Positions 37,501 to 60,403 of a stretch of DNA of 64,000 nucleotides are shown piece by piece. Numbering within the stretch: position 1 is the stretch's first letter; the number at the start of each line of letters is the position of its first letter. Source of the DNA: Zootoca vivipara (lineage: Eukaryota); NCBI RefSeq assembly GCF_963506605.1, contig NC_083276.1, positions 78,368,001 to 78,432,000 of the forward strand. The letters are read 5' to 3'. The position numbers and the translations under genes are program-made. The notes below the pieces were generated by a model. The model saw nothing but the letters and a program-made list of their open reading frames with translations, did no database searches and was not told the origin of the DNA.

Positions 37501-40500
37501 CTGCGAGTCCCTCAATAGCTCTACTCACATCTGGAATGAAGAACTGCAGCTCTGTTGAAGAGCATATGGTTTGCATATATACATTCCCAGCTTCCGTTTC
37601 TGGCATTTTAAGTTACAGCATTCTCCTCCAAGTCTTTGTTTCACCATTATACAATTCACTCTGGCCATACTGCATTAGCTTGACTATAGCCCTATAATCT
37701 TACTGTAACATAGGTGAGCCTTTGTGCTGAAAGTGGGTGGGAGAAAGTAGTACAGTGGTACCTCTGGTTAAGAACTTAATTCATTCCGGAGGTCTGTTCT
37801 TAACCTGAAACTGTTCTTAACCTGAAGCACACTTTAGCTAATGGGGCCTCCTGCTGCCGCCGCACCGCCAAAGCACGATTTCTGTTCTCATCCTGAAGCA
37901 AAGTTCTTAACCTGAGGTACTATTTCTGGGTTAGCAGAGTTTGTAACCTGAAGTGTTTGTAACCTGAAGTGTTTGTAACCCGAGATACCACTATATTTGG
38001 CATTGCAGGGAGGGAAACTAGAGGTGGCAGCAACATAGCTGGATAAACTCACTAGCCTTGTCACCTATTATTTGTATTCTACTACAACACCGTAATTTCC
38101 AACTACTCCACAAGTAGCAAGCACGTTTCAATATATTCAGACACATTCAGTAACTTTATATATACAAAAATTCAGTAAGTGGTTCCAATATGGACCAGTT
38201 ATACGAAAACTGTAACACAGGAACTATACTTCCCACAATATTGTTTTTTAAAATTGTGGTAGAATTAAACTTCATACTCTTTCCATCGTTCTATCTGCAC
38301 AAGCATTGCAGTCTGCTAGATGGAACAACCTCTCCCTTCCTCCCCCTGCACACTGTTCTGGGGAGCCTCCTGACACACACCTGCACAGAGGCAGAAAGCC
38401 CCAATATGCAAGAAAAAGTCTGCATGGGGCTTCTGCAGATTATGTGAATCCTGCCCAGTATTATTTAACAAATTTTACATACGACTTACTCTACAGAAAA
38501 CCTCCATCTGATTTATTTTCAGCAGATAGGAATATTTTAATAATGCTTCTCTATGGGAGAATACTTTGGCCACCTCATGAGAAGAGAAGAATCCTTGGAA
38601 AAGACCCTGATGTTGGGAAAGATTGAGGGCACTAGGAGAAGGGGATGACAGAGGACAAGATGGTTGGACAGTGTTCTCGAAGCTACGAACATGAGTTTGA
38701 CCAAACTGCGGGAGGCAGTGCAAGACAGGAGTGCCTGGCGTGCTATGGTCCATGGGGTCACGAAGAGTCAGACACGACTAAACGACTAAACAACACAACA
38801 ACATGGGAGAAGCCTTTTGGTTTATCCTTTTTATTTACTTTTATTTACTTTTGGGCAGTCTTTTAAATCTCATGATATAAGTCGAGGAATTCAGTCAATA
38901 AACAAAAGGTTTTTTTCCTTATACAACTACAAAAGTTAAAGGTTTGATATAATTGTGGAATCACCTCATACAGAAAACATATTTACATATTTGGTGTTGT
39001 TATTTTTACAAATTACAGGGGAGTCATTGCTATGCATACAATGGACTGATAAATTTATCAAAATCCAAAATAAATTAAAAGTAAATGTAAAAAATGGGTA
39101 CTCTAGCTAGTTAATAAAAAAACTGGCAATAAAAGCTGACTGCAAGACTTCTGTGAAAGCTAGTTACCTCTTTGTGTTGTAGGCTGTATCCTGTGGGGTT
39201 TCTTCAAGCAGTGTCACATATCCCAGGGTGCAGGTGAGGATGAACAGGACTGTTAAGGTGTGTGCTTGCCTATTGTATGGGGGGGGAGAGAAGGGGGAAA
39301 AAGTCAACAACAAATAATATTTTTCAGGACTATTTACTGTTGCTCAGTATCTTCAGCGGGTTAAAATGTATTTATTTTATTTCATTTATTAAAGATTTAA
39401 CCTTCCTCCAATCTAAAGTTCAGGGCAGCTAAATTTACTTATTTATAGACCACCTTTTCAGAAACAGTTCACATAAGAATACACTAAATATAAAAATAAA
39501 TTTGAACAAAATAATTGTTTCAGAGAGAAAAACAAACAACCCCTATACTTAACAGTTTCCTCAAACAACCCAAAGCCTTGCAGACCCTTTGGAAGGTTAT
39601 AAAGAAATATCTAGTCCTAACTTCCACAGACAGAATATTAAAAAAATCCTTCCAGTAGCACCTTAGAGACCAACTAAGTTTGTCATTGGTATGAGCTTTC
39701 GTGTGCATACACACTTCTTCAGATACACTGAAACAGAAGTCACCAGATCCCCACATGCCAACTTTGCTGCCACATACACCCAGACAACATCATTATTGGC
39801 CCCAACAACATCCAACATACCATCTCAGGACTATTTAATTGCTCATCTTTTAACATTGTGTATGCCATCAAATGCCAACAGTGCCCTTCAACTCTCTATA
39901 TCGGACAAACAGGCCAAACCCTACGCCAAAGGATAAATGGACATAAATCTGACATCAGGAATCACAAGACAGAGAAACCAGTAGGAGAACACTTCAATCT
40001 CCCAGGACATTCTATACAAGATCTCAAAGTAGCTGTCTTATTACAAAAGAATTTCAGAAATAGACTAGAAAGAGAAGTTGCTGAGCTGCAATTCATCACC
40101 AAACTTAAAACGATGGCGAAACCTGGTCTAAATAAAGACATTGGATTCTTATCTCATTATACATGATAAAGCTATCTTTAACCATCTCACCCCTTGCTTC
40201 TCCTGTGGGACCAATCGTCGTAAATTCTTCCTGTAAGACCAAATGCAGCCATAAACAGTCCGGCCCCTTCCCACCCTCTCACTATATTTGGGGATCTGGT
40301 GACTTCTGTTTCAGTGTATCTGAAGAAGTGTGCATGCACACGAAAGCTCATACCAATGACAAATTTAGTTGGTCTCTAAGGTGCTACTGGGAGGAAAAAC
40401 TTTTATTTTGTTTTGACTATACCAGACCAACACGGCTACCTACCTGTTCCACAGACAGATCATCTACAGCCTGCAAGTGTAATAAACCAAGCAGCACAGA

Positions 40501-43500
40501 TGGTAACATCAAGCCTTGAGGAACACTTTCTACCAATTTCTAAGGGGTGAATTAGTTTCCAAATGGCAAAATTCTGAGCACAGTCAGACAGACACTGCTG
40601 CAGCAACAGCCCATATGCCCGAACAAGGTGATCAAACTGACCTAAAAGAATGGCAAAGGTTGCAGTAAAAGTTACTCTGATAGCATTAGCACAAAAGCAT
40701 TCCTTCTGTCAATCTTTAGCTAAGTAAGGGATCACAACACTGCATTGGAAGCTTTCCTGTAAATAAAACAGCTTCTGAAAATACAATTGCCTTCTCACAA
40801 CTATACAGAAGCTTTGTATATAAATAATATGAGCACTGTAACCAACAGAACCACACTATTCATAATCAGTGTGCAGGACCACAATTTTTCAACTCAGAAG
40901 ACTGGATGTTGAGGCACAATTTTAAGGAATTTCAGTTACACAATACACGAAAGGTTATCAGAAAGGTTTGTTTCTCCACACTAAGTAACCAATACAAACA
41001 TGTCTGCAACTTTTCATGTACCAGCTTTCAGTAAACTCAAAACTCCTATTTATAAACACCCACATTCTCAGTTTCAAATATAAAAAGACTTTGTGTATTA
41101 TTCTAAGAGAATAAGTATGCAATGTATGTCACACAATTCACATGATGGGACTTCCCTTTCTTCTCCTGCTCACTATATCCCTCTGCATGCTCCCGAATCT
41201 GTTCTAGAGGATCCTCAAACTCTTCAGAGCAGATTGGAAGGCATACAGGCATTATAGAGTGTAAGGGGAATTCATTCCAGAAAGAGTGATGGATGATCAT
41301 CACTCAATAGTTTTCTTTATCTCTCATGGGCCACTTCACTAAACAGAGGGTCCAATATTCAACCATCATTTAACCAAGGAACAGAAAAGGCAAAAAAAAT
41401 ATCATCAATAGCAATAGTATACTTTGTTGAGATGGCAGCAATAAGGAATGGAAGAGGACATTCATGACCTAGCTTCTATGCAGAGATTACCACCAGTTCA
41501 GTAAGCTATGGTTTAATTTTGTAAAACTAGATTAGTTTTCTTTTGTGGCTCCTACATAAGGAAATGTGGTCCCCAAGTTATGTTCCATCCCATTTTCTGC
41601 AAGTCACAGAATGACAGCTGCTTGATAAACTCTTAAGTATGAAACGAAGGACAGGCAGAATCACCCCCAATGACTTATTTTCAGCATTGGGGCATTCTTC
41701 TCCCAGAAATCAATGACGTCCCAGCAACTTTGGGATGAAAACAAATAAAAGGTAAACCATGTGCTCTTTTGGTAGCATTTATCTTTAAAAACTTCTAATT
41801 CATTTCAATCATCTATATTAGAGTACAGCATAAAATTAAACTCAATGAGAGGAGAGGGCAGATTTTAGTAAACACACAAGAATCAATTTAAAGGAATCAG
41901 TAACAGGACAGCCACCTATGTCTAGATTAGTGTTTCCCAACAGGTGGTCCGCGGACCCCCAGGGGTCCGCGAGCTATGCCAGAGGGGTCCGCACCGCTGC
42001 CCAGCGCTGCCTGGGGCTGCTTCCCGCGTCCGCAGGGAGGGTGTAGTTCAGCACGGCTACTGATTGGCTGCAGGAAGCGCCAATCAGAAGGGGCAGCCAA
42101 TCAGAAGGGGCAGGAAAGAAGTCTCCGCCCAGGCGAGGGAGGGGAAGGCTGGCCGGCAGGAAGAGCGAACCGGAGCGTGGGAGTGTGCGGAGGAATACAG
42201 CGCCGCGCCCCGCCGCGCCCGAGAGGACATTTCCTGGCGCGCGCCTCCGTCCTGGTTCCCTTGGGGATGATGGGGACGAGGGAGCGCCCTTCCCCGCCAG
42301 GGCCTTCGGGAGCTGCGTGCCGGTTCGGCTGCCTTTGGTCCTCGCAGAGGCTGCAATGCACGGCCTGGCGTGCGTGGCGGCGGCGGCTCCGCGGCCTCCC
42401 TCCCACCCGCCAGCTGCGTGCCTCAGCTCCCGCCAGTAGCAGACAGAGCGCAAAGCTCTTCCCGGCCCCGCATCACTCTCCTCTTCCCTGGTAGCTCCCA
42501 ACCCTCTGCAGGAGACTCTCCCGAAGGGGCAGGAGGAGCAAAAGGGAGCCCAGCGCCCCACTTTCCTGGGAATGGAAGAAGATGAGTTCGCCTTCAAAGT
42601 GAGCACTTCTTCCATCTTCCATTGCTGCTCCTGAGCCGTACAGAAAAAGTTTGAACGCCAAGAAGGTTTAAAAAATGTATTCTGTGTTTTTACTTGTAAC
42701 CAGGCAGTTTATATTTTCTTCTGTGGCTGTTCTCCTATGACAGGGTGTTTTTATGTTAATTTGCACATGCATTTCCACCAATTATGAAAACTATTTACTG
42801 TATGATATCATAAATACTAATGTCGATCTGATTCTCAGGGAGCTGTACCACTATAGGAGAGCTATGAGCTGCCTTGCTGGAATCTAAGTAAAAAAATTCC
42901 TTCCAGCAGCTCATACCAAAATAAAAAACTTAGTTGGTCTTTAAGGTGCTGCTGGAAGGAATTTTTTTTATTTTGTTTCGACTACGTCAGACCAACACGG
43001 CTACCTACCTGAAATCTAAGGTTTGTAGGTGCACAAAAATATTTTGAAAACAGCTGCCTTGGGGTTAGAATCATAGAGTTGGAAGAGACCACAAGGGTCA
43101 TCTAGTCCAACCCCCTGCAGTGCAGGAACCATCTCTAAACAAATTAATGGGGGTCCTTGTCACAATAGTAGCTCGATGTGGGGTCCTTGAGAAAATTTTG
43201 TTGGGAACCCCTGGTCTAGATAAACAAGCCATTTCCCAGCACTTTCCAGAAGTCCTTATGAAAAACAAAGTCATTTGACAATGGTTAATTGATTATTCTG
43301 TAAAAACAGCAGAGCTAAAAGAATTTGAGGGTTGCTCCAGAAGTTCTGGCGCAACTCTCAACAGTACACAGATAACCTCCCAACTTCTCCTTCATGTACT
43401 TCTGAAGTAGTTCACTTGGGGCCAAACAAGAAGTTATGTCAGAAGAAGTGAATTACAATAATGCAAAGCCCCTACAAAATGGGGTGGCAGCACTGATGGG

Positions 43501-46500: not shown

Positions 46501-48552
46501 AAATGCTTGAGAGATTTTTTCAAAGTTTTCAGGAAATTTCGTCTCTCCCAGTGAAACTAAGGACACTGAGTTGATACTTAATTAAATAACCAGATTTCCA
46601 ACTAACATCATGTTGTTTGCTAGAAAATAATTTGCCTTCTCAAGAATTGCACAAAAAGAAAAAGTTACACCCAATGTGGAGGAAGAAAAGAACCATCATT
46701 CTGGGTATTGCATTACAAGGCTAACAACTGTAATGGAAAGAATACTGTGGCACATTAAAGATATAAAGCAAGTGGAATAAATAAAGACACAAAGTGGAAA
46801 AATATACAAGAATTAGTGATGCCACAATTACTATATCTTCGTGGGCAGGTATTGTGCTATATCTTTTGTTCTTGTGTAGGCTTTTCATGGCAAAAGAATT
46901 TATTATTCTTTTTGTCTTGAAGATGGTTTTGATACAGTCTTTTTTCATACTGTCTCAACAATAACAAAGTACAGTACAGTATGGCTTTGCTTTTAGGTGT
47001 GCATCAGGACAAGTAAAGTTTTAACCAGTTCTGTTTGAGAATATAATAAACTAAACAAGGTAGTCATGATAAGTCTAAAGGAGAAAAATAACAGCACACA
47101 AGTGCACATCTACTTCATCAGATATGGAAATGTTGAGGTCTGTCAATCCTTTTTTACTATAGATGAAAAATTACCTACTAATATGTAGTTACAGGTAGGT
47201 AGCCGTGTTGGTCTGTATCTGAAGAAGTGTGCATGCACACGAAAGCTCATACCAAAATAAAAAACTTAGTTGGTCTTTAAGGTGCTGCCGGAAGGAATTT
47301 TTTATATTTTGTTTCTACTAGTATGTAAATATTAGTAAATATTCCGCCTCCATCTCTTCACGAGACTGCTCAACTACAAAAGTCACACTATCTTTCATCA
47401 CCTGTGTCTACAAAACCTTATATTTTTTGTAGTACAAATGCTGGAGTAGTAGAATGATATCTGGAATACTATCACAAACCATTAAGCAAGGGCACTTAGA
47501 GAAGTGCTCTCCCTCTTCTCTACAAACTGCCCAGGCAAGTATTCTCTTGAGATAAGGAGATGAAAGTGTGGTTTTGCCTTTCAACTACCACAAGTAGGTT
47601 GTGCCTAGGAAAGCTATCCCACAAGAGTGCAATTGAAGCAAGATCAAATGTATTTACTCTGAAATTAAGTCTAACTGAATTAAACAGGATATATTTCCAA
47701 GTATGCATGGGAAAGCAGCCTCAGTTCCTTCTTGGTGCTGTAAATTACAGATATTTCTCAGAGATTTTGCTATATCAAATACTTATCAAGCCAGGAATGG
47801 TGGAAAAAAGCCAACAGTAAATATAAAGCATATTTACTCAGCAGTAAGTCGTACATGATATTTACTCAACAAGTGTGTTTAGGAATGTAACACTAATGAC
47901 TTCCCCCGACTGACCGCAAAAGCTGAGGAGAGAAACCAAAAGAGGGCCAATTCTTAAGAGAAGGCACAGCAGAAGTGACTTGAGAAAAGAGGCAGGTTCA
48001 GCAGGGCTCCTGGGACGGAGACATCCAGGAAGAGAAGACCCGCCAAATTCCAACGAGATGCACACCCTTCTTTATATCCTCGGCTCCAGCATCAAGTTCA
48101 ACCCGCTCACTCCCTCCTCCTTGTTGGTCCCTAGCCTTTTAAACGGACAGCCTGCCTACCCGCATCTTTAGTTGTGCATACACGCGTCTATTTACTGTGG
48201 GCAACCCGTGTCTATGGGCTGCGCCGTTTCCTTCCACGTGTCAGGAGGAAAGGGCCTTGGGGAAGAGAGGCGACCAGGGGGAAAGGACACGGGGCGCCCT
48301 GCTCCGGCCCCCTTACCAGAAGAACGTGTTGGTCCCGTCATCGTACACCTCGGACTCCGTGCTTCGCCGGCTCCCGTGCGTCGCGGTAGAACCAGTGGTG
48401 GTCGTGGGGGCGGCAGCGCCCTTACAGCGCCCCGGCGAAACCTCTGCCACGGGGGGAGAAGCCCCGTTGGGCTCCGCCGGCGGCTGCTCCTCTTCCTCCA
48501 GGGCTGCTTTTCCAGTGCCCCCTCCGTGACCTCTCCGCTCGGTGCGCCTCAT
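10794..48552 (-). CDS. PTDSS2: Phosphatidylserine synthase 2, 12 coding exons (join of the exons listed below), 499 aa
   Basis: Exon translations match vertebrate PTDSS2 ([68 protein letters not shown]). Exon lengths 236/102/83/68/135/51/114/119/115/146/186/145 sum to 1500 with consistent phases and GT-AG boundaries. Confidence 0.97.
11747..11932 (-). CDS. PTDSS2: PTDSS2 exon 11
   Basis: [44 protein letters not shown]...WRFFI; 186 nt. Confidence 0.95.
12414..13287. mobile_element. Tc1/mariner (Tc2-like) non-autonomous transposon
   Basis: TIR CCGTATAT(A/G)CTGGCGTATAAGACG; TA flanks. Confidence 0.8.
15314..15347 (+). repeat. (AAT)n microsatellite
   Basis: Seen directly. Confidence 0.9.
19636..19781 (-). 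CDS. PTDSS2: PTDSS2 exon 10
   Basis: [48 protein letters not shown]; 146 nt. Confidence 0.95.
20782..20896 (-). CDS. PTDSS2: PTDSS2 exon 9
   Basis: [38 protein letters not shown]; 115 nt. Confidence 0.95.
21272..21616 (+). mobile_element. Sauria SINE
   Basis: Full head and tail; TSD TATCCCTCTA. Confidence 0.9.
22916..23034 (-). CDS. PTDSS2: PTDSS2 exon 8
   Basis: [39 protein letters not shown]; 119 nt. Confidence 0.95.
23811..23924 (-). CDS. PTDSS2: PTDSS2 exon 7
   Basis: [38 protein letters not shown]; 114 nt. Confidence 0.95.
25464..25509 (+). repeat. (GA)n microsatellite
   Basis: Seen directly. Confidence 0.95.
25871..25921 (-). CDS. PTDSS2: PTDSS2 exon 6
   Basis: [17 protein letters not shown]; 51 nt. 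Confidence 0.95.
27335..27469 (-). CDS. PTDSS2: PTDSS2 exon 5
   Basis: [45 protein letters not shown]; 135 nt. Confidence 0.95.
28076..28554. mobile_element. hAT MITE (same TIR family as 138-227) with an internal palindromic repeat array
   Basis: TIR (T/C)ATAGCTGCCAAGT; 8-bp TSD GCTATAGG. Confidence 0.85.
28580..28685 (+). mobile_element. Short PLE pLTR insertion, hammerhead stem II deleted
   Basis: GTATCTGAAGAAG...CTCATACCAA...CAGACCAACATGGCTACCTACCTGTA; 15-bp TSD ACTAGAACTAATAGT at 28565-28579 and 28686-28700. Confidence 0.85.
28707..28842. mobile_element. Palindromic MITE
   Basis: Long inverted arms TGGCCAAACTTGGCCCTCCAGCTGTTT...GGACTACAA. Confidence 0.75.
29307..29374 (-). CDS. PTDSS2: PTDSS2 exon 4
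   Basis: [22 protein letters not shown]; 68 nt. Confidence 0.95.
32984..33164. mobile_element. Tc2-like MITE
   Basis: Imperfect TIRs with TA flanks; repeated AATCTAATGCAC motif. Confidence 0.6.
33245..33951 (+). repeat. Perfect 60-bp direct repeat (33245-33304 and 33892-33951) flanking PTDSS2 exon 3
   Basis: GAAATCACATTCTACCTAGGGGATACAGGCTATGAAACATAGGTTACTACTTTCAACATT occurs twice. Confidence 0.9.
33384..33466 (-). CDS. PTDSS2: PTDSS2 exon 3
   Basis: [27 protein letters not shown]; 83 nt. Confidence 0.95.
37085..37300 (-). mobile_element. CR1-like LINE 3' fragment
   Basis: CATAAGAAGAGCC...CAGACCAAAG...CATCCTGTTCTCAC pattern typical of an antisense CR1 tail. Confidence 0.5.
37753..37993. 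mobile_element. Tigger/TcMar-like MITE
   Basis: TA-CAGTGGTACCTC...GAGATACCACTA-TA termini; internal TAACCTGAAG repeats. Confidence 0.75.
38560..38803 (+). mobile_element. RTE-BovB 3' fragment
   Basis: Matches the 3' end of 1812-3178; CAA tail. Confidence 0.85.
39168..39269 (-). CDS. PTDSS2: PTDSS2 exon 2
   Basis: [33 protein letters not shown]; AG/GT boundaries; 102 nt. Confidence 0.95.
39689..39726 (-). ncRNA. Minimal hammerhead ribozyme (inverted copy; sense to the PTDSS2 pre-mRNA)
   Basis: Reverse complement GTAT-CTGAAGA-A-GTGTGTATGCACAC-GAAA-GCTC-ATAC; core intact, one change in stem II. Confidence 0.75.
40316..40353 (+). ncRNA. Minimal hammerhead ribozyme
   Basis: Identical core and stems to 54501-54538. 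Confidence 0.8.
42889..43012 (+). mobile_element. Short PLE pLTR/leader insertion with a 22-nt inverted 5' piece
   Basis: AGCTCATACC...CAGACCAACACGGCTACCTACCTG; TSD AATCTAAG at 42881-42888 and 43013-43020. Confidence 0.85.
43066..43130 (-). mobile_element. CR1 LINE 3'-end fragment
   Basis: Reverse complement ends CTTCCAACTCTATGATTCTA. Confidence 0.65.
44895..44992 (+). mobile_element. Old degenerate PLE pLTR/hammerhead fragment
   Basis: ATCTGATGAA...GTCCATGAAA...CTTTAAACTGCCA has the same layout as the PLE HHR and leader, but decayed. Confidence 0.5.
47188..47320 (+). mobile_element. Short PLE pLTR insertion with intact hammerhead (47215-47252) and an inverted tail segment
   Basis: Inverted GTTACAGGTAGGTAGCCGTGTTGGTCTG joined to the forward HHR. 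Imperfect TSD CTACTA(A/G)TATGTA at 47175-47187 and 47315-47327. Confidence 0.85.
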
Positions 48553-48860: not shown

Positions 48861-49102
48861 AAAATGGGGCGTGGTTTTTTTTGTGTGTGTCTTTTGCTCG
48901 TGGGCGAAGAGCGGTCTGTTATGCTCTTCTAGTCCCGCCCCTACAGCTTTTAGATAAGTTAAAAGTCAAAGTTGTAGCCGTGCGCTTGCATGTTTTGAAG
49001 CAAGTTCCACGGCGGACAGTGGGAGCTACAAAGAGAGAGAGAGAGAGCCCCGTGGTATCCTAAAGGCGAAGACGTTTTATTATGGTGGGCTAGAATCTTT
49101 AA

Positions 49103-49932
49103 GGACGCGGGTGGCGCTGTGGGTTAAACCACAGAGCCTAGGCAGAAGGTCGGCGGTTGAATCCCTGCGACGGGGTCAGCTCCCGTTGCTCGGTGGTCCC
49201 AGCTCCTGCCAACCTAGCAGTTCGAAAGCACGTCAAAGTGCAGGTAGATTAATAATAATAATGATAATTTATTTATACCCCGCCCATCTGGCTGGGTTTC
49301 CCCAGCCACTCTGGGCGGCTTCCAACAGAAATATTGTTGTTTAGTCGTGTCCGACTCTTCGTGACCCCATAGACCAGAGCAGGCCAGGCACTCCTGTCTT
49401 CCGCTGCCTCCCGCAGTTTGGTCAAACTCATGTTCGTAGCTTTGAGAACACTGTCCAACCATCTTGTCACAGAAATATTAAAATACACTAATTTCTTAAA
49501 TATTAAAAGCTTCCCTAAACAGGGCTGCCTTCAGAGGTCCTCTAAAAGTCTGGTAGTTATTTTTCTTTTTGACATCTGGTGGGAGGGTGTTCCACAGGGC
49601 GAGTGCCACTACCGAGAAGGCCCTCTGCCTGGTTCCCTGTAACTTGGCTTCTTGCAGCGAGGGAACCGCCAGAAGGCCCTCGGCCTCGGCACTGGACCTC
49701 AGTATCCGGGCAGAGCGATGGAGGTGGAGACGCTCCTTCAGGTATTCTGGTACCGCTACAGTGGGAAGATAAATGGCGTTTCCGTGTGCTGCTCTGCTTT
49801 GCCAGAAGCGGCTTTGTCATGCTGGCCACATGACCTGGTAGCTGTACGCCATCTCCCTCGGCCAACGCGAGATGAGCGCCGCAACCCCAGAGTCAGTCAC
49901 GACTGGACCTAATGGTCAGGGGTCCTGACCAT
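49103..49932 (+). mobile_element. Sauria SINE interrupted by an antisense L2-like fragment (~49249-49748), itself interrupted by an antisense BovB 3' end (49336-49468)
   Basis: SINE halves are contiguous across the insert. Outer TSD TAGAATCTTTAA; inner TSD ACAGAAATATT. Confidence 0.8.
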
Positions 49933-51607
49933 TAGAATCTTTAAACCAAGTTCTGTGGATTTTGCCGCGAAGGACTAAAACGGCTTCCCCGCTGGGAAAT
50001 GGGAGTTTTGTCCTTGGAAAACAAACTGATCCTAAAACTTGTTGGTACGGAAGGAAGTCCCACCTATTTCAAAATGGAGGAAAATCTCATGTTACCATAA
50101 CAACAGCTTATTAAGCAAGTAGAGAAGGGTCTTCTGTAACTAGGTGGTGGGAGCATAGGGCCACTTTTGAGATCAAGTATTTTGGGTACACATAATAGAA
50201 ATCTGTTAAAGTGTCAAAAGCTGACCTGCCGACTTCCATCCTGGATCACAGATTTCACTACCATTTGTCTCCCACCATACAGTAAGGTTATGTCATGTAT
50301 AGCACAGTCTTATGCAGCCAACTTAGAAATAAGGTGCTTGGAAATTAAACAGGGTCTGCTGATTTCTCTTTAAGGTTTCCAGACTCAAAAGAGAGCAAGG
50401 CAATTAAAGGCACAGAAGTCCTGTCCTCTATTGAGACTGGCAACCCTACAGGTTTCATCCCTGTGTCTCCCCCCCACCCTGTTCTGACCCATTATCTATC
50501 CTTGCCCCCTTTTCGCCCCCCCAATCCCCCCCAGGCAGGCCCCTACCTCCACTTGGCGTAGTCTGGAAAGCGGCCTAGTCTGCTGCGGCCTATTCAGTCT
50601 GCTGGGCAATGTTGGGCCTTGTTGCTGCAAAAGGCGTGTTTTCAGTTGGTTGCTGTGGAATTTTGAGATGTCATCCGGTGGTGCGGCTTTGGAGGCAGCA
50701 GCGTGCTATCTGCCTTTCTGTTGGATGCTGCTGGAGTCTTCAGAGCTTCTGCTGGTGATGTCTAATTTGTGCACCACTTTTTGTGTTTAATCATTATTTT
50801 AGGTGTGAAAGGTGTGGGTTTTTAAATAATTTTTTAATGCTAGATACCTCCCTGATGGGCAAGGTGCGTTGTGCCCAAATTTGTTGCAATGCGGTTCAGC
50901 GGTTATGGTGAAAGGCTGGGACATCTACGCACGCAATGCCTACATTTATGTATATATAGATTTATTAAAATTAAAATAAAAGCATGCATGAAAAGAGATG
51001 TACCTAGGGTCCCTTGCACCCTGGACAAAAATATGTATTGGTGCCCCCCCAGTCCCTTGTGCTCCTCCCTGGGGTGCCCAAGGGAGCCTGCATGCTTCAC
51101 CTGGCTGCCCATAACAGCAAAGGAACAGTTTGGGGAGTAGGCGGGCTCCTAGCAACTCCGAGCCAGAGCGGACAGACACGGTTTTAGCGGGCCTGCACCC
51201 TTGGCAGGGGCCAACCTGGCCAACCCCTAGATACGCCCCTGTGCATAAAATAACATGATGGGTGCCTTTGGGATGTGTTTTAGAAATATCACAAACCTCA
51301 AGAGGCCAGTATGTGCGTCAGCTTCCTAACACACACTTGCCCAGCCATTCTCTTCAATACACATGCACGAGTTTCCATGTATAAAAAGTTAACATGAGAA
51401 TCAGTGCGTACACACACACACAAGTCAGATAGAACAGGTTCTTCTTTTTGCACTCACCTCTGACTCAGCAATCTCACCTATAGCACACTAAAATCAAAGG
51501 GGCCTCCAGCTTCTTCAATTTGCTTTTGGAGCTACCCCTTAAAAGCATTAGCATCCAAATACGAGAACACTATTATGCACAGTCATTACCTACCTGTAAC
51601 CAGAACT

Positions 51608-54313
51608 ATGGAAGGCACCACATTGAGCCGCATGAAATGGAAGTCCATCAACCTCACCAAGAAACTTGCCCAGGTACAAACTGACATCCTCTTTCTATCT
51701 AAATGCAAAAACCTGGACATTGTACCTAAGGGTCTTAGAATTAAGAACCCTCTTCAATCAACTTATCCCACAGAATATGCCAGAAAACTATGCCACACTT
51801 TATCTAAGAAACTGCTGAAACATCTTATCGGCGTTCTGTATTCCAAACAGAAGTTAATAAAGGAGGAACTCTCTGCACTGGAGAACTCCATCAGGAATCA
51901 CCCGGCCTGGCAGAAGTTCCACAAGGAAAAACAAACAATTTACCACTCTCAACTGGAGTTACTGAAGAACCAGAAAAATAAAAAACTCTGCAACCTTTCC
52001 AACCTACAGGCCACCAATCAAAACAAGATCAACAACATTGTCAATCTTTCACAGCAAACACTCAGCCCAGCTGAGGAATCCGTCCTTTCACGGGGACTAT
52101 CATTCTGCCCTGCCAAATCCCAACACATGATTCAGTTCTGCGGGGACCTGGAAGCATTTTTCCGCCGTTTACGCCTGAAGGAGTATTTTCATCACACACA
52201 AGAACAAGACAAAGTAGAACAAACTACATCCCCACAACACAACACCTCTCAACTTACTGGGGAACAACCATCACCCTCCAAACGCATCAATGAACAGAAC
52301 ATTGACCACCAACTACCACCGAAAAGAAGTTACACAAAAAGGGACTCCACATGGACCCCTCCTGATGGACGCAATACCACACTAGATCTGTACATCGAAT
52401 GCTTCCGCCACAGAATCCAAACGGATGTGACCAGAAAACACCATCGCTTACAACAAAATCTAAACCATGCTGAAAGGAGAGCCATAGAAAATCTCAGGAA
52501 CAACCCAGACATTATAATTAAAGAGGCAGACAAGGGTGGAGCTGTCGTCATCATGAACAAAACTGATTACATCCAAGAGGCCCACAGACAACTTTCCAAT
52601 ACTGCCTTTTACATGAAATTGGACTCAGACCCCACACAAGCATACAAAAAAGAACTGAACAAGATTATTAAGGAGCTACCCCTACACATCCAAGAACAGA
52701 TCCTCACAAACACACCAGCGGAACCTCGGCCAGGAACTTTCTATCTTCTACCCAAAATACACAAACCAGGAAACCCAGGACGCCCCATCATCTCAGGTAT
52801 TGGCACCATTACAGTGGGTGTTTCCGGCTATATGGACTCTGTTCTGAAACCATATGCTATCAGTGCTCCCAGCTACGTACGTGACACCACAGATTTTCTG
52901 AGGAAAATACAATATTTGAACAATCTTCCTAACAATACTATACTAGCCACTATGGATGTGGAATCTCTATATACCAACATCCCACACAATGATGGTTTAC
53001 AAGCCATAAGGAACACCATTTCAGATAAAACCACAGCGGACTTTGCTACCAAACTCTGCCACTTTGTCCTTACCCACAACCACTTCAAATTTGGTGATGA
53101 CCTGTTCCTCCAGATCAGCGGCACAGCCATGGGCACCCGCATGGCCCCACAGTATGCCAACATCTTCATGGCAGATTTAGAACAACGTTTCCTTAACTCC
53201 TACCCACTCAAACCTCTCCTGTACCTGCGATACATTGACGATATTTTTATTATCTGGACACATGGACAACAGACCCTGGAAACCTTCCACCAGACATTCA
53301 ATGACTTTCACCCCACCATCAACCTAACAATGAACCAATCTATGCAAGAAATACATTTTTTGGACACTACTATAAAAATACAGGATGGACGTATAGACAC
53401 CACCTTATACAGAAAACCAACTGACCGACAAACATATCTACATGCTTCTAGCTACCATCCCAAACATACCAAACAATCCATCGTATACAGCCAGGCCTTA
53501 CGTTACAACCGCATCTGTTCCAACTCTACAGACAGAGAATCTCACCTAAGAGATCTACAGCAAACCTTTTTAGAACTAAAATATCCACCTGATGAAGTTA
53601 AACAACAGATCAACAGAGCCAGACAGATACCTAGAGAGAACCTGCTGCAAGACAGACCCAAAAAAGAAAATAACAGAACACCACTAGTCATCACATACAG
53701 CTCCCAAGCTAAAACAGTACAACGCATCATCAGAGATCTACAGCCTCTCCTGGACAATGACCGCTCCCTTTCTCAAGCTCTGGGAGGAAGACCTTTCATT
53801 GCCTACAGACAGCCACCCAATCTTAAACAACTCCTCACCCACAATAATACAACCACCAGACTTAACATGGACACTGGTACCAGAGCCTGCAATAAACCCA
53901 GATGCCAACTTTGCTGCCACATACACCCAGACAACACCATTACTGGCCCCAACAACATCCAACATACCATCTCAGGACTATTTAATTGCTCATCCTCTAA
54001 CATTGTGTATGCCATCAAATGCCAACAGTGCCCTTCAGCTCTCTATATTGGACAAACAGGCCAAACCCTACGCCAAAGGATAAATGGACATAAATCTGAC
54101 ATCAGGAACCAGAAGACAGAAAAACCAGTAGGAGAACACTTCAATCTCCCAGGACATTCTATACAAGATCTCAAAGTAGCTGTCTTACTACAAAAGAATT
54201 TCAGAAATAGACTGGAAAGAGAAGTTGCTGAATTGCAACTTATCACCAAGCTCAAAACCATGGAGGGACCTGGTTTGAACAGAGATATCGGGTTCTTATC
54301 TCATTATACATGA
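51608..54313 (+). CDS. PLE reverse transcriptase + GIY-YIG endonuclease, copy 1 (901 aa)
   Basis: ADKG motif; RT motifs LPKIHK, GRPIIS, MDVESLYTNIP, GTAMG, YIDD; Cys linker CNKPRCQLCC; [15 protein letters not shown]...LYIGQT...RINGH. No stops or frameshifts. Confidence 0.95.
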   Translation: MEGTTLSRMKWKSINLTKKLAQVQTDILFLSKCKNLDIVPKGLRIKNPLQSTYPTEYARKLCHTLSKKLLKHLIGVLYSKQKLIKEELSALENSIRNHPAWQKFHKEKQTIYHSQLELLKNQKNKKLCNLSNLQATNQNKINNIVNLSQQTLSPAEESVLSRGLSFCPAKSQHMIQFCGDLEAFFRRLRLKEYFHHTQEQDKVEQTTSPQHNTSQLTGEQPSPSKRINEQNIDHQLPPKRSYTKRDSTWTPPDGRNTTLDLYIECFRHRIQTDVTRKHHRLQQNLNHAERRAIENLRNNPDIIIKEADKGGAVVIMNKTDYIQEAHRQLSNTAFYMKLDSDPTQAYKKELNKIIKELPLHIQEQILTNTPAEPRPGTFYLLPKIHKPGNPGRPIISGIGTITVGVSGYMDSVLKPYAISAPSYVRDTTDFLRKIQYLNNLPNNTILATMDVESLYTNIPHNDGLQAIRNTISDKTTADFATKLCHFVLTHNHFKFGDDLFLQISGTAMGTRMAPQYANIFMADLEQRFLNSYPLKPLLYLRYIDDIFIIWTHGQQTLETFHQTFNDFHPTINLTMNQSMQEIHFLDTTIKIQDGRIDTTLYRKPTDRQTYLHASSYHPKHTKQSIVYSQALRYNRICSNSTDRESHLRDLQQTFLELKYPPDEVKQQINRARQIPRENLLQDRPKKENNRTPLVITYSSQAKTVQRIIRDLQPLLDNDRSLSQALGGRPFIAYRQPPNLKQLLTHNNTTTRLNMDTGTRACNKPRCQLCCHIHPDNTITGPNNIQHTISGLFNCSSSNIVYAIKCQQCPSALYIGQTGQTLRQRINGHKSDIRNQKTEKPVGEHFNLPGHSIQDLKVAVLLQKNFRNRLEREVAELQLITKLKTMEGPGLNRDIGFLSHYT

Positions 54314-54500
54314 TAAGCGATCTTCAGCCATCTCAACCCTTGCTTTTTCATGCAAAACCATTTGCAGTCGTTTGCGGTCATCAACAGCTATCAGTCAGTC
54401 AATCACCCATTTCCACCACCCTTCTGAGTGATCCCCCCTCCCCATCCCCACCCCTCCCCACCCCTTCTCTACATAAGTGCCTGGAAACTTCCATTTCACT

Positions 54501-54538
54501 GTATCTGAAGAAGTGTGCATGCACACGAAAGCTCATAC
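54501..54538 (+). ncRNA. Minimal type I hammerhead ribozyme (PLE pLTR); predicted cleavage after C54534
   Basis: GTAT-CTGAAGA-A-GTGTGCATGCACAC-GAAA-GCTC-ATAC: CUGANGA/GAAA core, stem I GUAU/AUAC, stem II hairpin, vestigial palindromic stem III (AGCU). Confidence 0.85.
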
Positions 54539-54637
54539 CAAAATAAAAACTTAGTTGGTCTTTAAGGTGCTACTGAAGGAATTTTTTTATTTTACTTCGA
54601 TCCAGACCAACACGGCTACCTACCTGTAACCAGAACT

Positions 54638-57343
54638 ATGGAAGGCACCACATTGAGCCGCATGAAATGGAAGTCCATCAACCTCACCAAGAAACTTGCC
54701 CAGGTACAAACTGACATCCTCTTTCTATCTAAATGCAAAAACCTGGACATTGTACCTAAGGGTCTTAGAATTAAGAACCCTCTTCAATCAACTTATCCCA
54801 CAGAATATGCCAGAAAACTATGCCACACTTTATCTAAGAAACTGCTGAAACATCTTATCGGCGTTCTGTATTCCAAACAGAAGTTAATAAAGGAGGAACT
54901 CTCTGCACTGGAGAACTCCATCAGGAATCACCCGGCCTGGCAGAAGTTCCACAAGGAAAAACAAACAATTTACCACTCTCAACTGGAGTTACTGAAGAAC
55001 CAGAAAAATAAAAAACTCTGCAACCTTTCCAACCTACAGGCCACCAATCAAAACAAGATCAACAACATTGTCAATCTTTCACAGCAAACACTCAGCCCAG
55101 CTGAGGAATCCGTCCTTTCACGGGGACTATCATTCTGCCCTGCCAAATCCCAACACATGATTCAGTTCTGCGGGGACCTGGAAGCATTTTTCCGCCGTTT
55201 ACGCCTGAAGGAGTATTTTCATCACACACAAGAACAAGACAAAGTAGAACAAACTACATCCCCACAACACAACACCTCTCAACTTACTGGGGAACAACCA
55301 TCACCCTCCAAACGCATCAATGAACAGAACATTGACCACCAACTACCACCGAAAAGAAGTTACACAAAAAGGGACTCCACATGGACCCCTCCTGATGGAC
55401 GCAATACCACACTAGATCTGTACATCGAATGCTTCCGCCACAGAATCCAAACGGATGTGACCAGAAAACACCATCGCTTACAACAAAATCTAAACCATGC
55501 TGAAAGGAGAGCCATAGAAAATCTCAGGAACAACCCAGACATTATAATTAAAGAGGCAGACAAGGGTGGAGCTGTCGTCATCATGAACAAAACTGATTAC
55601 ATCCAAGAGGCCCACAGACAACTTTCCAATACTGCCTTTTACATGAAATTGGACTCAGACCCCACACAAGCATACAAAAAAGAACTGAACAAGATTATTA
55701 AGGAGCTACCCCTACACATCCAAGAACAGATCCTCACAAACACACCAGCGGAACCTCGGCCAGGAACTTTCTATCTTCTACCCAAAATACACAAACCAGG
55801 AAACCCAGGACGCCCCATCATCTCAGGTATTGGCACCATTACAGTGGGTGTTTCCGGCTATATGGACTCTGTTCTGAAACCATATGCTATCAGTGCTCCC
55901 AGCTACGTACGTGACACCACAGATTTTCTGAGGAAAATACAATATTTGAACAATCTTCCTAACAATACTATACTAGCCACTATGGATGTGGAATCTCTAT
56001 ATACCAACATCCCACACAATGATGGTTTACAAGCCATAAGGAACACCATTTCAGATAAAACCACAGCGGACTTTGCTACCAAACTCTGCCACTTTGTCCT
56101 TACCCACAACCACTTCAAATTTGGTGATGACCTGTTCCTCCAGATCAGCGGCACAGCCATGGGCACCCGCATGGCCCCACAGTATGCCAACATCTTCATG
56201 GCAGATTTAGAACAACGTTTCCTTAACTCCTACCCACTCAAACCTCTCCTGTACCTGCGATACATTGACGATATTTTTATTATCTGGACACATGGACAAC
56301 AGACCCTGGAAACCTTCCACCAGACATTCAATGACTTTCACCCCACCATCAACCTAACAATGAACCAATCTATGCAAGAAATACATTTTTTGGACACTAC
56401 TATAAAAATACAGGATGGACGTATAGACACCACCTTATACAGAAAACCAACTGACCGACAAACATATCTACATGCTTCTAGCTACCATCCCAAACATACC
56501 AAACAATCCATCGTATACAGCCAGGCCTTACGTTACAACCGCATCTGTTCCAACTCTGCAGACAGAGAATCTCACCTAAGAGATCTACAGCAAACCTTTT
56601 TAGAACTAAAATATCCACCTGATGAAGTTAAACAACAGATCAACAGAGCCAGACAGATACCTAGAGAGAACCTGCTGCAAGACAGACCCAAAAAAGAAAA
56701 TAACAGAACACCACTAGTCATCACATACAGCTCCCAAGCTAAAACAGTACAACGCATCATCAGAGATCTACAGCCTCTCCTGGACAATGACCGCTCCCTT
56801 TCTCAAGCTCTGGGAGGAAGACCTTTCATTGCCTACAGACAGCCACCCAATCTTAAACAACTCCTCACCCACAATAATACAACCACCAGACTTAACATGG
56901 ACACTGGTACCAGAGCCTGCAATAAACCCAGATGCCAACTTTGCTGCCACATACACCCAGACAACACCATTACTGGCCCCAACAACATCCAACATACCAT
57001 CTCAGGACTATTTAATTGCTCATCCTCTAACATTGTGTATGCCATCAAATGCCAACAGTGCCCTTCAGCTCTCTATATTGGACAAACAGGCCAAACCCTA
57101 CGCCAAAGGATAAATGGACATAAATCTGACATCAGGAACCAGAAGACAGAAAAACCAGTAGGAGAACACTTCAATCTCCCAGGACATTCTATACAAGATC
57201 TCAAAGTAGCTGTCTTACTACAAAAGAATTTCAGAAATAGACTGGAAAGAGAAGTTGCTGAATTGCAACTTATCACCAAGCTCAAAACCATGGAGGGACC
57301 TGGTTTGAACAGAGATATCGGGTTCTTATCTCATTATACATGA
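54638..57343 (+). CDS. PLE reverse transcriptase + GIY-YIG endonuclease, copy 2 (901 aa)
   Basis: Same protein as copy 1 except one visible difference, T->A (NSTDRE vs NSADRE; A53528 vs G56558). Confidence 0.95.
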   Translation: MEGTTLSRMKWKSINLTKKLAQVQTDILFLSKCKNLDIVPKGLRIKNPLQSTYPTEYARKLCHTLSKKLLKHLIGVLYSKQKLIKEELSALENSIRNHPAWQKFHKEKQTIYHSQLELLKNQKNKKLCNLSNLQATNQNKINNIVNLSQQTLSPAEESVLSRGLSFCPAKSQHMIQFCGDLEAFFRRLRLKEYFHHTQEQDKVEQTTSPQHNTSQLTGEQPSPSKRINEQNIDHQLPPKRSYTKRDSTWTPPDGRNTTLDLYIECFRHRIQTDVTRKHHRLQQNLNHAERRAIENLRNNPDIIIKEADKGGAVVIMNKTDYIQEAHRQLSNTAFYMKLDSDPTQAYKKELNKIIKELPLHIQEQILTNTPAEPRPGTFYLLPKIHKPGNPGRPIISGIGTITVGVSGYMDSVLKPYAISAPSYVRDTTDFLRKIQYLNNLPNNTILATMDVESLYTNIPHNDGLQAIRNTISDKTTADFATKLCHFVLTHNHFKFGDDLFLQISGTAMGTRMAPQYANIFMADLEQRFLNSYPLKPLLYLRYIDDIFIIWTHGQQTLETFHQTFNDFHPTINLTMNQSMQEIHFLDTTIKIQDGRIDTTLYRKPTDRQTYLHASSYHPKHTKQSIVYSQALRYNRICSNSADRESHLRDLQQTFLELKYPPDEVKQQINRARQIPRENLLQDRPKKENNRTPLVITYSSQAKTVQRIIRDLQPLLDNDRSLSQALGGRPFIAYRQPPNLKQLLTHNNTTTRLNMDTGTRACNKPRCQLCCHIHPDNTITGPNNIQHTISGLFNCSSSNIVYAIKCQQCPSALYIGQTGQTLRQRINGHKSDIRNQKTEKPVGEHFNLPGHSIQDLKVAVLLQKNFRNRLEREVAELQLITKLKTMEGPGLNRDIGFLSHYT

Positions 57344-57530
57344 TAAGCGATCTTCAGCCATCTCAACCCTTGCTTTTTCATGCAAAACCATTTGCAGTCG
57401 TTTGCGGTCATCAACAGCTATCAGTCAGTCAATCACCCATTTCCACCACCCTTCTGAGTGATCCCCCCTCCCCATCCCCACCCCTCCCCACCCCTTCTCT
57501 ACATAAGTGCCTGGAAACTTCCATTTCACT

Positions 57531-57568
57531 GTATCTGAAGAAGTGTGCATGCACACGAAAGCTCATAC
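57531..57568 (+). ncRNA. Minimal hammerhead ribozyme, second unit; predicted cleavage after C57564
   Basis: Identical to 54501-54538. Confidence 0.85.
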
Positions 57569-58933
57569 CAAAATAAAAACTTAGTTGGTCTTTAAGGTGC
57601 TACTGAAGGAATTTTTTTATGCACAGTCAATTATGGCCTGAATTAATCATTATGCTAAGTACTCTGCTAAGTAGGCCCCCTGCCAAATGGGGGTTCTTGT
57701 GATGCTCTAATTATCTGGGAGCTTTCCCAATATGGAGAGTATACCCATATTGATGCTTGTATTGCAGCCTTTTAAAATTCCCTGTGGTTTGGAACAGGAT
57801 AGCTATTATTTTATCACAAGAAAGCGTGCCAAATCTGTAGTGGGTGGGAATTGAATATTGAGAGCCTGGTTGGCACAAGCAGTAGAATTCTTTGAACTGC
57901 AGGAGGCTGCGTGCCTGGCTGCATATATCTATGTCCCATTTTTATATATGAACACTGACCAGGTAGAAAGGGTTACTCAGAAATTTGGAGCCCTAAAAGA
58001 TAGTTCAGCTTTTCATCTGGCCATATTCCATTCCACTTGGTTTGTTAAATTATTTGTTTTACAAAATTCATACAGTACATTGTTTAAAGAAAACCTCATA
58101 ATGGTTTACAAAGAGCAGCAAGGCCTAAAAGGTGAAATTCAAAAGTGTGGGGGGTAAATATTTACATATGCAGGGTAATCCAAATCATATGGGAACTCAG
58201 AATTCAAAACCATATCCCCCCCCCCCCCAAAAAATCCAAGCCTGTGGCCAAGAGTTGCAAGATCCTGTGATTGCCATCTAAGGCCCTTCTCTCTGTGTCC
58301 TCCACAGAAGGGCCAGAGGGTGTCAACATGAGAATAATTGTTTTTAGTGGTGGCTCCCCACTTGTGGAATACACTTCCCTGATATGTTTCCCTGGGCCCA
58401 TGTTTATCTACATTTAGGCACCAGCCAAAGCTTTCCTTTTTACCTGGCTTTTTGTGCCTGAATTTGAAAGGTTTTCATTGCTTTTTTGGTTTTTTATAAG
58501 TTTATTTATATGCTGGCAGACAAACTTGACATTCATACATACATATAACAATTAAACCTAAAGAGTGAAAAAATTATAGTAAAAGGATGTTAATACACAA
58601 AACAGAAAAAACAATATTAACAATATTAACAAAAAAGAAAAAGAAAATAATAATTAAAGTAAACACATATCTCAAAAATAAGTGATATATGTAATCAAAT
58701 TTCATATCCATTTTCTTAGGTTTTCATTGGTTTATTCATTCTAAGTGATTTCAATGCTTATATTTTGTTGTGAGTTAGTTTGGGCCATTTTTGTGAGTAA
58801 AGCAACTAATAAATATTAATAATATATAAAAAAATGAGTGTGTTGCACAAGAGTAGCTAAGCCAGGGCCAGACCTAGCATTAGGCAAACCAAAGCAGCCG
58901 CCTCATGAGTAGATGCTGGTTTATGGGTCTTTA

Positions 58934-58974: not shown

Positions 58975-59006
58975 CTGTACCAAAAACAAACAAACTACAA
59001 AGGGAT

Positions 59007-59358
59007 GGGACATGGGTGACGCTGTGGGTTAAACCACAGAGCCTAGGGCTTGCCGATCAGAAGGTCGGCGGTTCGAATCCCCGCAACGGGGTGAGCTCCC
59101 GTTGCTCGGTCCCTGCTCCTGCTAACCTAGCAGTTTCGAAAGCACATCAAAGTGCAAGTAGATAAATAGGTACCACTCTGGCAGGAAGGTAAACGGCGTT
59201 TCCATGCGCTGCTCTGGTTCGCCAGAAGCGGCTTAGACATGCTGGCCACATGACCTGGAAGCTGTATGCTGGGTCCCTCGGCCAATAAAGCGAGATGAGC
59301 ACCGCAACCCCAGAGTCGGTCACGACTAGACCTAATGGTCAGGGGTCCCTTTACCTTT
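59007..59358 (+). mobile_element. Sauria SINE
   Basis: Full length; TSD TACAAAGGGATGG. Confidence 0.9.
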
Positions 59359-60302: not shown

Positions 60303-60403
60303 GGGACCCAGGTGGCGCTGTGGGCTAAACCACTGAGCCTAGGGCTTGCTGATCAGAAGGTCGGCGGTTCGAATCCCTGTGACGGGGTGAGCTCCCGTTG
60401 CTT
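60303..60403 (+). mobile_element. 3'-truncated Sauria SINE head
   Basis: tRNA-like head only; flanked by the direct repeat GGTCAGCTAC. Confidence 0.8.

What the first reader, a model, noticed from the sequence alone, without database searches (positions are those of the whole stretch)
54501..54538. Minimal hammerhead ribozyme with two palindromic arms, suited to dimeric cleavage
Seen: CUGAAGA and GAAA core, 4-bp stem I, an extra A before stem II, stem II formed by the perfect 14-nt palindrome GTGTGCATGCACAC, and stem III reduced to the palindrome AGCT. The motif is identical at 40316, 47215, 54501 and 57531, even though the upstream 3' UTR of the 40-kb copy has clearly diverged, which points to selection on the RNA. 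Established: minimal PLE hammerheads are reported to cleave better as dimers. Inference: a read-through transcript of this dimer supplies two copies in cis, so cleavage may be triggered specifically in tandem transcripts.
Basis: partly seen in the sequence, partly recalled or inferred. Interest (0 to 1): 0.7.

Follow-up and report, generated by a model that had tools for sequence, protein, structure and literature searches.

The report
Penelope retrotransposon's minimal hammerhead ribozyme
This is an ordinary member of a known kind of tiny ribozyme carried by a very common jumping gene of this animal; it likely forms the first 38 letters of the element's RNA, and the genome's copies were almost never made from RNA that starts at the predicted cut.

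Summary
The 38-nt motif is real: exact at 40316, 47215, 54501 and 57531, with a fifth, inverted copy at 39689. It is a minimal type I hammerhead in the pseudo-LTR of a young Penelope-like retrotransposon, a class described in 2014. The genome holds 13,219 exact copies. Selection on the fold is supported: 1 of 38 positions varies among five subfamilies (the free N7), against 14 of 47 third codon positions, and related families covary. The 'two palindromes for dimers' idea is half right. AGCU is the known dimer feature. The helix II palindrome is not kept in a related family, is predicted to form a competing duplex, and serves as a DNA fold-back joint (292 loci). Copies' 5' ends pile up at the ribozyme's first base (about 4,400, mostly with an extra G, 31 nt behind a TATA-like box), likely the capped start; only 81 matches begin at the cut site. 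So cut linear RNA is hardly a template. Cleavage was not tested. The scan noted the start-site pile-up before, on other DNA of this genome.

The parts
54501..54538 (+). Minimal type I hammerhead: helix I 54501-54504 with 54535-54538; core CUGAAGA 54505-54511; extra A 54512; helix II 54513-54526; GAAA 54527-54530; AGCU 54530-54533; predicted cut between 54534 and 54535
   Evidence: fits the consensus of PMC4209133 Fig. S3
54470..54477 (+). TATA-like box (TACATAAG; TATATAAG in other subfamilies), first base 31 nt before the hammerhead's first G; likely the pLTR promoter
   Evidence: promoter function inferred
54501..54501 (+). Likely transcription start: genomic copies' 5' ends pile up here, mostly with an extra G
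54539..54637 (+). Rest of the leader; genomic copies end near 54590 or near 54630 (the PLE 'tail'), likely two internal reverse-transcription start sites
   Evidence: analogy to PMC11167929
54638..57343 (+). Intact 901-aa ORF, RT plus GIY-YIG endonuclease, with a CX4CXXC linker (second unit)
51608..54313 (+). Same ORF, first unit; no promoter or hammerhead of its own in front
51587..57620 (+). Whole insertion: 1.99 head-to-tail units of 3,030 bp, seamless in the middle, one A/G difference (53528/56558)
51573..51585 (+). Left target-site duplication TTATGCACAGTCA
57617..57629 (+). Right target-site duplication TTATGCACAGTCA (first four bases shared with the element's end)
57531..57568 (+). Second hammerhead of the same insertion
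40316..40353 (+). Hammerhead of a 5'-truncated copy of another subfamily (copy spans about 39750-40447)
39689..39726 (-).
47215..47252 (+). Hammerhead of a leader-only copy that begins at the motif, joined to an inverted tail (47188-47214)
42908..43014 (+). Leader fragment beginning about 30 nt into the motif; no intact hammerhead
28578..28690 (+). Leader-only copy with helix II lost

Best explanation
The motif is a minimal type I hammerhead in the terminal repeat of a young, high-copy Penelope-like retrotransposon, where it likely forms the first 38 nucleotides of the element's capped RNA and is predicted to cut only rarely, when two copies pair through AGCU, probably with help from the element's protein. 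Shown: the anatomy, the position between two RT-endonuclease ORFs, conservation across subfamilies, covariation, the pile-up of 5' ends at the first base and the scarcity of 5' ends at the cut site. Inferred: transcription starts at 54501 behind a TATA-like box; most transcripts stay uncut, and reverse transcription starting about 90 or 130 nt downstream runs back through the intact ribozyme to the cap, which gives the thousands of short copies. Inferred, least certain: when both copies in one pLTR-ORF-pLTR transcript do cut, a 3,030-nt unit is released, closed by a host ligase and copied more than once round, which would give seamless tandems like this 1.99-unit insertion and so restore a promoter in front of an ORF. 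The helix II palindrome is family-specific and not part of the active dimer; its visible effect is as a joint in head-to-head insertions.
For: Anatomy matches the published consensus point by point. RT and GIY-YIG on both sides. Among five subfamilies 1 of 38 motif positions varies, the catalytically free N7, against 14 of 47 third codon positions, 15 of 33 promoter positions and 93 of 154 3' UTR positions (binomial 2.5e-5). 16 aligned motifs from this and related families: 19 cells with double-sided changes, 7 of 10 pairs, covariation 0.38 against 0.06-0.15 for slid partners. Of 100 copies chosen by the downstream tail, 26 begin at -5..+9 (7.4 expected, p about 8e-8) and 4 at +31..+37 (4.3 expected). 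Genome-wide, 4,489 copies have G or C just before the first base, 81 of the first 100 listed a G; only 61 matches of a narrower pattern keep the upstream sequence. Matches that begin at the cut site behind three foreign bases: 81; controls at +31 and +38: 50 and 15. RNA reads cross the cut site at depths of several hundred to over 2,000 with no listed pile of starts or ends there. The insertion has one target duplication, no terminal overlap and a seamless middle, so it was copied in one go through two intact hammerheads. Published: monomer inactive, dimer low (PMC4209133); anole Poseidon hammerhead cuts only with its protein, is not needed for insertion in vitro, and shows no RNA-seq ends at the cut (PMC11167929).
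Against: No cleavage, cap, start site or circle was measured. The sequence downstream of the motif is conserved too (4 of 12 and 2 of 28 positions vary, the latter biased by the search pattern), so part of the conservation may belong to the leader as a whole or to exchange of leaders between subfamilies. The count at the cut site (81) is above both controls (50, 15), so a small excess of cut templates is not excluded; the three patterns differ in base make-up, and at least 3 of 25 inspected cut-site loci are internal deletions. The double hammerhead is predicted to be less stable than two monomers. The RNA reads are mostly short copies inside host transcripts (93-94% run on into unlike sequence; two samples of one study, about 6% of each read), so they say little about the element's own RNA. 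Seamless tandems are explained as well by template jumps or by longer source arrays. The covariation alignment mixes old decayed copies that were found by core and helix II patterns, so part of the pairing is built in.
Confidence: 0.6

Rival explanations
1. The ribozyme plays no part in making tandems. Reverse transcription reaches the cap and jumps to the identical leader in the downstream repeat, as in retroviral strand transfer, or copies a read-through RNA from a longer array. The hammerhead then only limits translation or RNA life by occasionally removing the cap.
For: Jumps from the first base (with an extra G) to about +180 of another copy are seen in L120 and in public contigs. Core mutants of the anole element insert normally in vitro (PMC11167929). 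Naiad elements multiply without canonical hammerheads (PMC8557442, passages). Other more-than-unit copies exist in G000 (L117).
Against: A jump after copying the cap should leave G before the first base in copies with intact upstream sequence; only 22 of 61 such copies have G against 39 with C, as point mutation could give (weak test, two subfamily groups not covered). L109 repeats one deletion junction through four near-identical units, which a circle explains simply, though later tandem expansion would too.
Confidence: 0.25
2. One reading: both palindromes prepare the motif for efficient dimeric cleavage that fires specifically in tandem transcripts.
For: AGCU is kept in all five subfamilies and in 9 of 17 old related copies although the search did not ask for it. 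Axolotl retrozyme hammerheads cut much better as dimers (PMC7229834, passages). A transcript from 54501 would hold two copies.
Against: Helix II swap and helix III swap cross and cannot be one nested fold; the swap is far more stable and has no helix III. Loop palindrome in 2 of 17 related copies. Published minimal PLE dimers cut poorly (PMC4209133); 8 of 9 Xenopus dimers not at all (bioRxiv 10.64898/2026.07.22.740005). This insertion was copied through both sites uncut or rejoined.
Confidence: 0.1
3. The motif no longer cuts; it is kept as a binding or dimerisation structure for the element's protein at the RNA 5' end.
For: No footprint of cutting. The whole leader is conserved. PMC4209133 leaves non-cleaving functions open.
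Against: The only core position that varies between subfamilies is N7, which catalysis leaves free; the core is invariant in the 16-motif alignment, though partly by search design; the anole homologue cuts with protein and shows C3G/G8C rescue (PMC11167929).
Confidence: 0.1

Closest known systems
[quoted passage not shown] S3
   Same: CUGANGA-H core, extra nucleotide before helix II, G10.1-C11.1 pair, 4-bp helix I, no helix III, palindromic 15.2-16.2, place in the pLTR, thousands of solo copies. The turtle motif has helix I GCAU/AUGC, helix II GUGGG/CCCAC and G-C at 15.2/16.2.
   Different: Helix II here is a perfect 14-nt palindrome with a 4-nt loop; the turtle motif has a 7-nt loop. Copies here are very uniform (young family). 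No lizard example turned up in a search of the supplement (file 1 not searchable).
Poseidon_Ac (PAc) of the green anole (Frangieh et al. 2024, PMC11167929)
   Same: Lizard PLE in tandem repeats; hammerhead at the pLTR-ORF junction; two preferred 3' ends (tail); uncut RNA as main template; no RNA-seq ends at the cut site.
   Different: PAc is Penelope/Poseidon clade with its start codon at helix II; here the main ATG lies 137 nt after the first base and the protein has the CX4CXXC linker of Neptune/Nematis.
Penelope elements of Adineta vaga (Arkhipova et al. 2013, PMC3846280)
   Same: TATA and initiator-like TCACT in the pLTR; head-to-head inverted pLTRs with palindromes at the junction; tail; target duplications.
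   Different: There the palindromes were read as self-priming on an antisense template and not tied to a hammerhead helix; copy numbers are tiny.
Non-LTR retrozymes of animals (PMC7229834; bioRxiv 10.64898/2026.07.22.740005)
   Same: Tandem units with a type I hammerhead; dimer-dependent cutting in amphibians; circles closed by RtcB in vitro.
   Different: Retrozymes are short and non-coding and mostly carry canonical hammerheads; this locus is a coding element with a minimal one. The 598-bp array L109 is the retrozyme-like derivative.

Membership tests
Minimal type I hammerhead of metazoan PLEs | Core CUGANGA, GAAA and NUH in type I order with helix I open | tested here: met
Minimal type I hammerhead of metazoan PLEs | [quoted passage not shown] | tested here: met
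   A 54512; G 54513 with C 54526; G-C in 16 of 16 aligned motifs, which the search patterns required
Minimal type I hammerhead of metazoan PLEs | Helix III absent, positions 15.2-16.2 palindromic | tested here: met
   AGCU 54530-54533
Minimal type I hammerhead of metazoan PLEs | Lies in the pLTR of a PLE | tested here: met
   between two RT/GIY-YIG ORFs, repeated 3,030 bp on
Minimal type I hammerhead of metazoan PLEs | Families with compensatory changes | tested here: met
Minimal type I hammerhead of metazoan PLEs | Self-cleavage at NUH (low, dimer- or protein-dependent) | not testable with these tools
   no bench test; genomic and RNA footprints not found
Canonical type I hammerhead (Rfam models) | Match to an Rfam hammerhead model; helix III; 6-bp helix I with loop contacts | tested here: not met
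   no hammerhead among 20 matches at E<=10; helix I is 4 bp, no helix III
Endonuclease-bearing Penelope-like element | Single ORF with RT and C-terminal GIY-YIG | tested here: met
   PF00078 5.5e-12, PF01541 6.2e-5
Endonuclease-bearing Penelope-like element | Tandem or partial-tandem pLTRs, inverted 5'-truncated partners, optional 30-40 bp tail | tested here: met
Neptune/Nematis clades | CX2-5CXXC linker between RT and endonuclease | tested here: met
   CNKPRCQLC in the translation; criterion from PMC8557442
Neptune/Nematis clades | Placement in an RT tree with reference PLEs | not tested
   no tree built; no reference set fetched
Non-LTR retrozyme | Short non-coding tandem unit | tested here: not met
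   3,030-bp unit with an intact 901-aa ORF

The most novel reading that the evidence does not exclude
The hammerhead is a switch at the very 5' end of the RNA. Uncut, capped RNA is translated and yields the short copies; a protein-assisted double cut removes the cap and commits the unit to a circle that alone makes new promoter-bearing tandems. Its palindromic helix II doubles as an RNA dimerisation signal that loads two templates on a protein dimer and then joins their cDNAs head to head, which would explain the inverted insertions typical of Penelope elements. With tens of thousands of datable junctions and intact young ORFs, this family would make the long-open question of what PLE hammerheads do directly testable.
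Probability: 0.12. Interest if true: 0.65.

Novelty: new member of a known kind. Interest (0 to 1): 0.22.

Why it matters
The motif itself is ordinary: such hammerheads were described across animal PLEs in 2014. What has some value is the genomic footprint. The role of PLE hammerheads is still called unclear (PMC8557442). Here thousands of insertions show that the ribozyme likely begins on the first transcribed base and that RNA starting at the cut site is at most a minor template. That narrows the models to 'rare cut, then circle' or 'cut only to silence', and the family offers intact young elements for the bench test.

Tried and rejected
my pattern had the wrong spacing and found nothing; one search replaced it. 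Rfam scan: no hammerhead match. Single-strand folding gives no unusual stability (z -0.44 for the 38-mer, 0.08 to 0.60 for longer pieces), so folding energy is no evidence either way. Two window copies (42908, 28578) first looked as if they began at the cut site; one begins 2-5 nt earlier at a microhomology and the other is an internal loss of helix II. All-against-all BLAST for 5' ends was confounded by inverted dimers and replaced by anchored alignment to 25 reference copies, 24 usable. Fold-backs centred on the cut site were considered as a sign of cleavage: 10 pairs among the 81 matches, but 2 of the first 50 short inverted junctions against 6 of 50 at AGCT, so microhomology explains them. 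The cap-jump test was inconclusive (22 G, 39 C of 61). No RNA holder was listed by the run index; two raw RNA runs added by species label were laid. Paper searches: searches listed no paper that maps PLE 5' ends to the hammerhead's first base or ties helix II to inversion junctions; (guessed lizard genera) gave nothing relevant; subscription journals are not in the library. The supplements of PMC11167929 gave no text hits, its figures and the supplements of the 2026 preprint were not seen and may bear on the start site and on lizard families. A look-up of earlier findings by sequence was empty.

Full report
1. Observation. Window 54501-54538 reads GTAT CTGAAGA A GTGTGCATGCACAC GAAA GC TC ATAC. 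It is identical at 40316, 47215, 54501 and 57531, and a fifth copy with one change lies inverted at 39689-39726. Read as RNA it is a type I hammerhead with a 4-bp helix I, an extra A, a 5-bp helix II closed by CAUG, and AGCU where helix III would be; the predicted cut is between 54534 and 54535. G000 (1.44 Gb) has 13,219 exact copies and none of the reversed control; a relaxed pattern gives 23,725 against 112. Rfam lists no hammerhead among 20 matches at E<=10; its models expect a helix III (my knowledge).

2. Context. The motif lies 187 nt after the stop of one ORF, and its first base lies 137 nt before the ATG of an identical ORF. [quoted passage not shown] The insertion runs 51587-57620, is 1.99 units of 3,030 bp with one difference, has a 13-bp target duplication, begins at +117 and ends at +90 (counting the motif's first G as +1) and is seamless in the middle. 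As its ends do not overlap, it could not have doubled by crossing-over of terminal repeats; it was most likely copied in one event through two intact hammerheads (inference). Sauria-SINE-like repeats suggest a lizard (recalled; an earlier scan note also says lizard).

3. What is known. PMC4209133 (main text parts 1-3 of 4; supplement file 2 parts 1-2 of 3; file 1 unavailable) defines this class, lists the extra nucleotide, G10.1-C11.1 and the palindromic 15.2-16.2 as consensus traits, reports it in turtle and snakes, and found no cleavage as monomer and low cleavage as dimer or trimer. PMC11167929 (parts 1-2 of 4; supplement text searched without hits; figures not seen) shows that the anole Poseidon hammerhead cuts only with its protein, is not needed for insertion in vitro and leaves no RNA-seq ends, and that RT starts at two internal sites that define the tail. 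bioRxiv 10.64898/2026.07.22.740005 (parts 1-3 of 5; supplements not seen) saw cleavage in 1 of 9 Xenopus dimers. PMC3846280 (passages) already describes TATA and initiator-like motifs in pLTRs and palindromes at inverted junctions. PMC7229834 (passages) shows dimer-enhanced cutting and RtcB closure for axolotl retrozymes.

4. Selection. Identity among four young copies proves little. I aligned 36 long copies, 35 of them sorted into five subfamilies of 2 to 23 members. Positions that differ among subfamilies: motif 1 of 38 (N7, A or C), third codon positions 14 of 47, first and second 9 of 94, promoter 15 of 33, 3' UTR 93 of 154. At the third-position rate, at most 1 of 38 has probability 2.5e-5. 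Against a motif-specific reading, the 40 nt downstream vary little too (4 of 12; 2 of 28, biased by the search). Searches that excluded this family's helix II found related motifs: 20 matches (3 of this family, two of them with a double change in helix II; 17 of an older family with a similar tail, no ORF near) and 65 matches against 39 controls. On 16 chosen motifs (2 window copies, 10 of those 17, 4) 7 of 10 pairs show double-sided changes, 19 cells, covariation 0.38 against 0.06-0.15 for slid partners. The rows are old, related and found by partly paired patterns, so this supports rather than proves the fold.

5. The two palindromes. In the double-hammerhead model helix III and helix I form between copies while helix II stays within each. 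AGCU serves that and stands in 9 of the 17 old copies though not searched for. The helix II palindrome does not: nearest-neighbour energies are -30.6 kcal/mol for the best dimer (a 14-bp swap, no helix III), -11.1 for the double hammerhead and -13.6 for two monomers, and the two swaps cross (tertiary contacts, Mg2+ and protein are not modelled). Only 2 of 17 old copies have a palindromic loop centre. What the palindrome visibly does is join inverted copies: 292 loci are perfect fold-backs on it, and it is the strongest self-annealing 14-mer of the DNA leader (-18.9 kcal/mol). AGCT fold-backs are 6 of the first 50 short inverted junctions.

6. Footprint of the RNA template. I took the first 100 of 35,939 copies listed by a pattern downstream of the motif (after 1.3 Mb the list shows plus-strand copies only) and mapped where each stops matching upstream. 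26 begin at -5..+9, 15 at +10..+30, 4 at +31..+37, 7 at +38..+50, 29 between -6 and -340, and 19 run beyond. Expected from the neighbouring rate: 7.4 and 4.3 for the first and third bins. Genome-wide, 4,489 copies have G or C in place of T just before +1, 81 of the first 100 a G, and a pattern that also demands the upstream sequence finds 61 (two subfamily groups not covered). A TATA-like box starts 31 nt before +1. An extra G at the 5' end of a retrocopy is the usual trace of a copied cap (my knowledge; one search listed two papers holding the terms, not read). So transcription likely starts at +1. I saw the pile-up before looking up earlier notes; note e1-9556134 reports the same with the extra G, which I then counted. 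At the cut site only 81 matches begin behind three foreign bases, against 50 at +31 and 15 at +38 (one spacer type only); at least 3 of 25 inspected are internal deletions. A small excess is not excluded, but cut linear RNA is at most a minor template.

7. RNA. No indexed holder was on record as RNA. Two raw RNA runs of one study, about 6% of each, cover 54490-54633 at depths of hundreds to over 2,600 and the ORF and UTR at 14 or less; 93-94% of reads run on into unlike sequence. These are short copies in host transcripts. Reads cross the cut site freely and no pile of starts or ends is listed there. That fits an inactive monomer, but fragmented libraries show ends poorly.

8. Mechanism. Best reading (0.6): a weak, conditional ribozyme at the RNA's 5' end. 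Most RNA stays uncut; RT starting near +90 or +130 runs back to the cap and leaves short copies, often as inverted pairs. A transcript from 54501 holds both hammerheads; a rare double cut, helped by the protein, would free a 3,030-nt unit that a host ligase closes and RT copies more than once round, restoring a promoter in front of an ORF. L109 (four near-identical 598-bp units with one repeated deletion junction) and L117 fit this but do not prove it. Rivals: template jumps or longer source arrays with the ribozyme uninvolved (0.25); efficient two-palindrome dimer cutting (0.1); a non-cutting binding structure (0.1).

9. Verdict. A true feature and a new member of a known kind. Interest 0.22.

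Noticed in passing
L109:1320-3742 (G000:C1, about 2777320-2779740): Non-coding array of about four 598-bp units (leader +1..+216 joined to the element's last 386 bp), 99.5-100% identical to the window element, each with promoter and hammerhead: a retrozyme-like derivative.
   Followed up: partly
L120:5750-6041; contigs of run X1: A copy's first base, preceded by a G, is joined to about +180 of another copy: a likely template jump from the cap.
   Followed up: partly
window 54519-54554: The AUG in loop II opens an 11-codon upstream ORF in weak context, out of frame with the main ATG; the frame differs in the 40-kb subfamily.
   Followed up: no
L141, L143, L145, L146, L150-L153, L156, L158 (39 of 65 matches): An imperfect hammerhead-like motif in a different repeat, about 60 nt before codons reading IGTWNV (an RTE/BovB-like endonuclease start, label recalled); no hit to the PLE protein; helix I is mismatched next to the cut.
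   Followed up: no
L144, L147, L157, L149: Rare further minimal hammerhead families with other helix II sequences and no ORF nearby.
   Followed up: partly
L115:1285-4284: A full-length unit plus the next leader whose 5' end falls at +31, near the cut site, joined to an inverted partner; a single case.
   Followed up: no
window 28175-28482, 28697-28853, 5586-5716: Long inverted-repeat elements (MITE-like) that give the sub-threshold Rfam microRNA matches.
   Followed up: no
window 5392-6161, 21267-21617, 49097-49935, 59002-59358, 60298-60432: Dispersed copies of one repeat family, Sauria-SINE-like by recollection.
   Followed up: no
window 54316-54395: A few RNA reads skip 78 nt (GC..AG) of the 3' UTR; probably a subfamily indel rather than splicing.
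   Followed up: no
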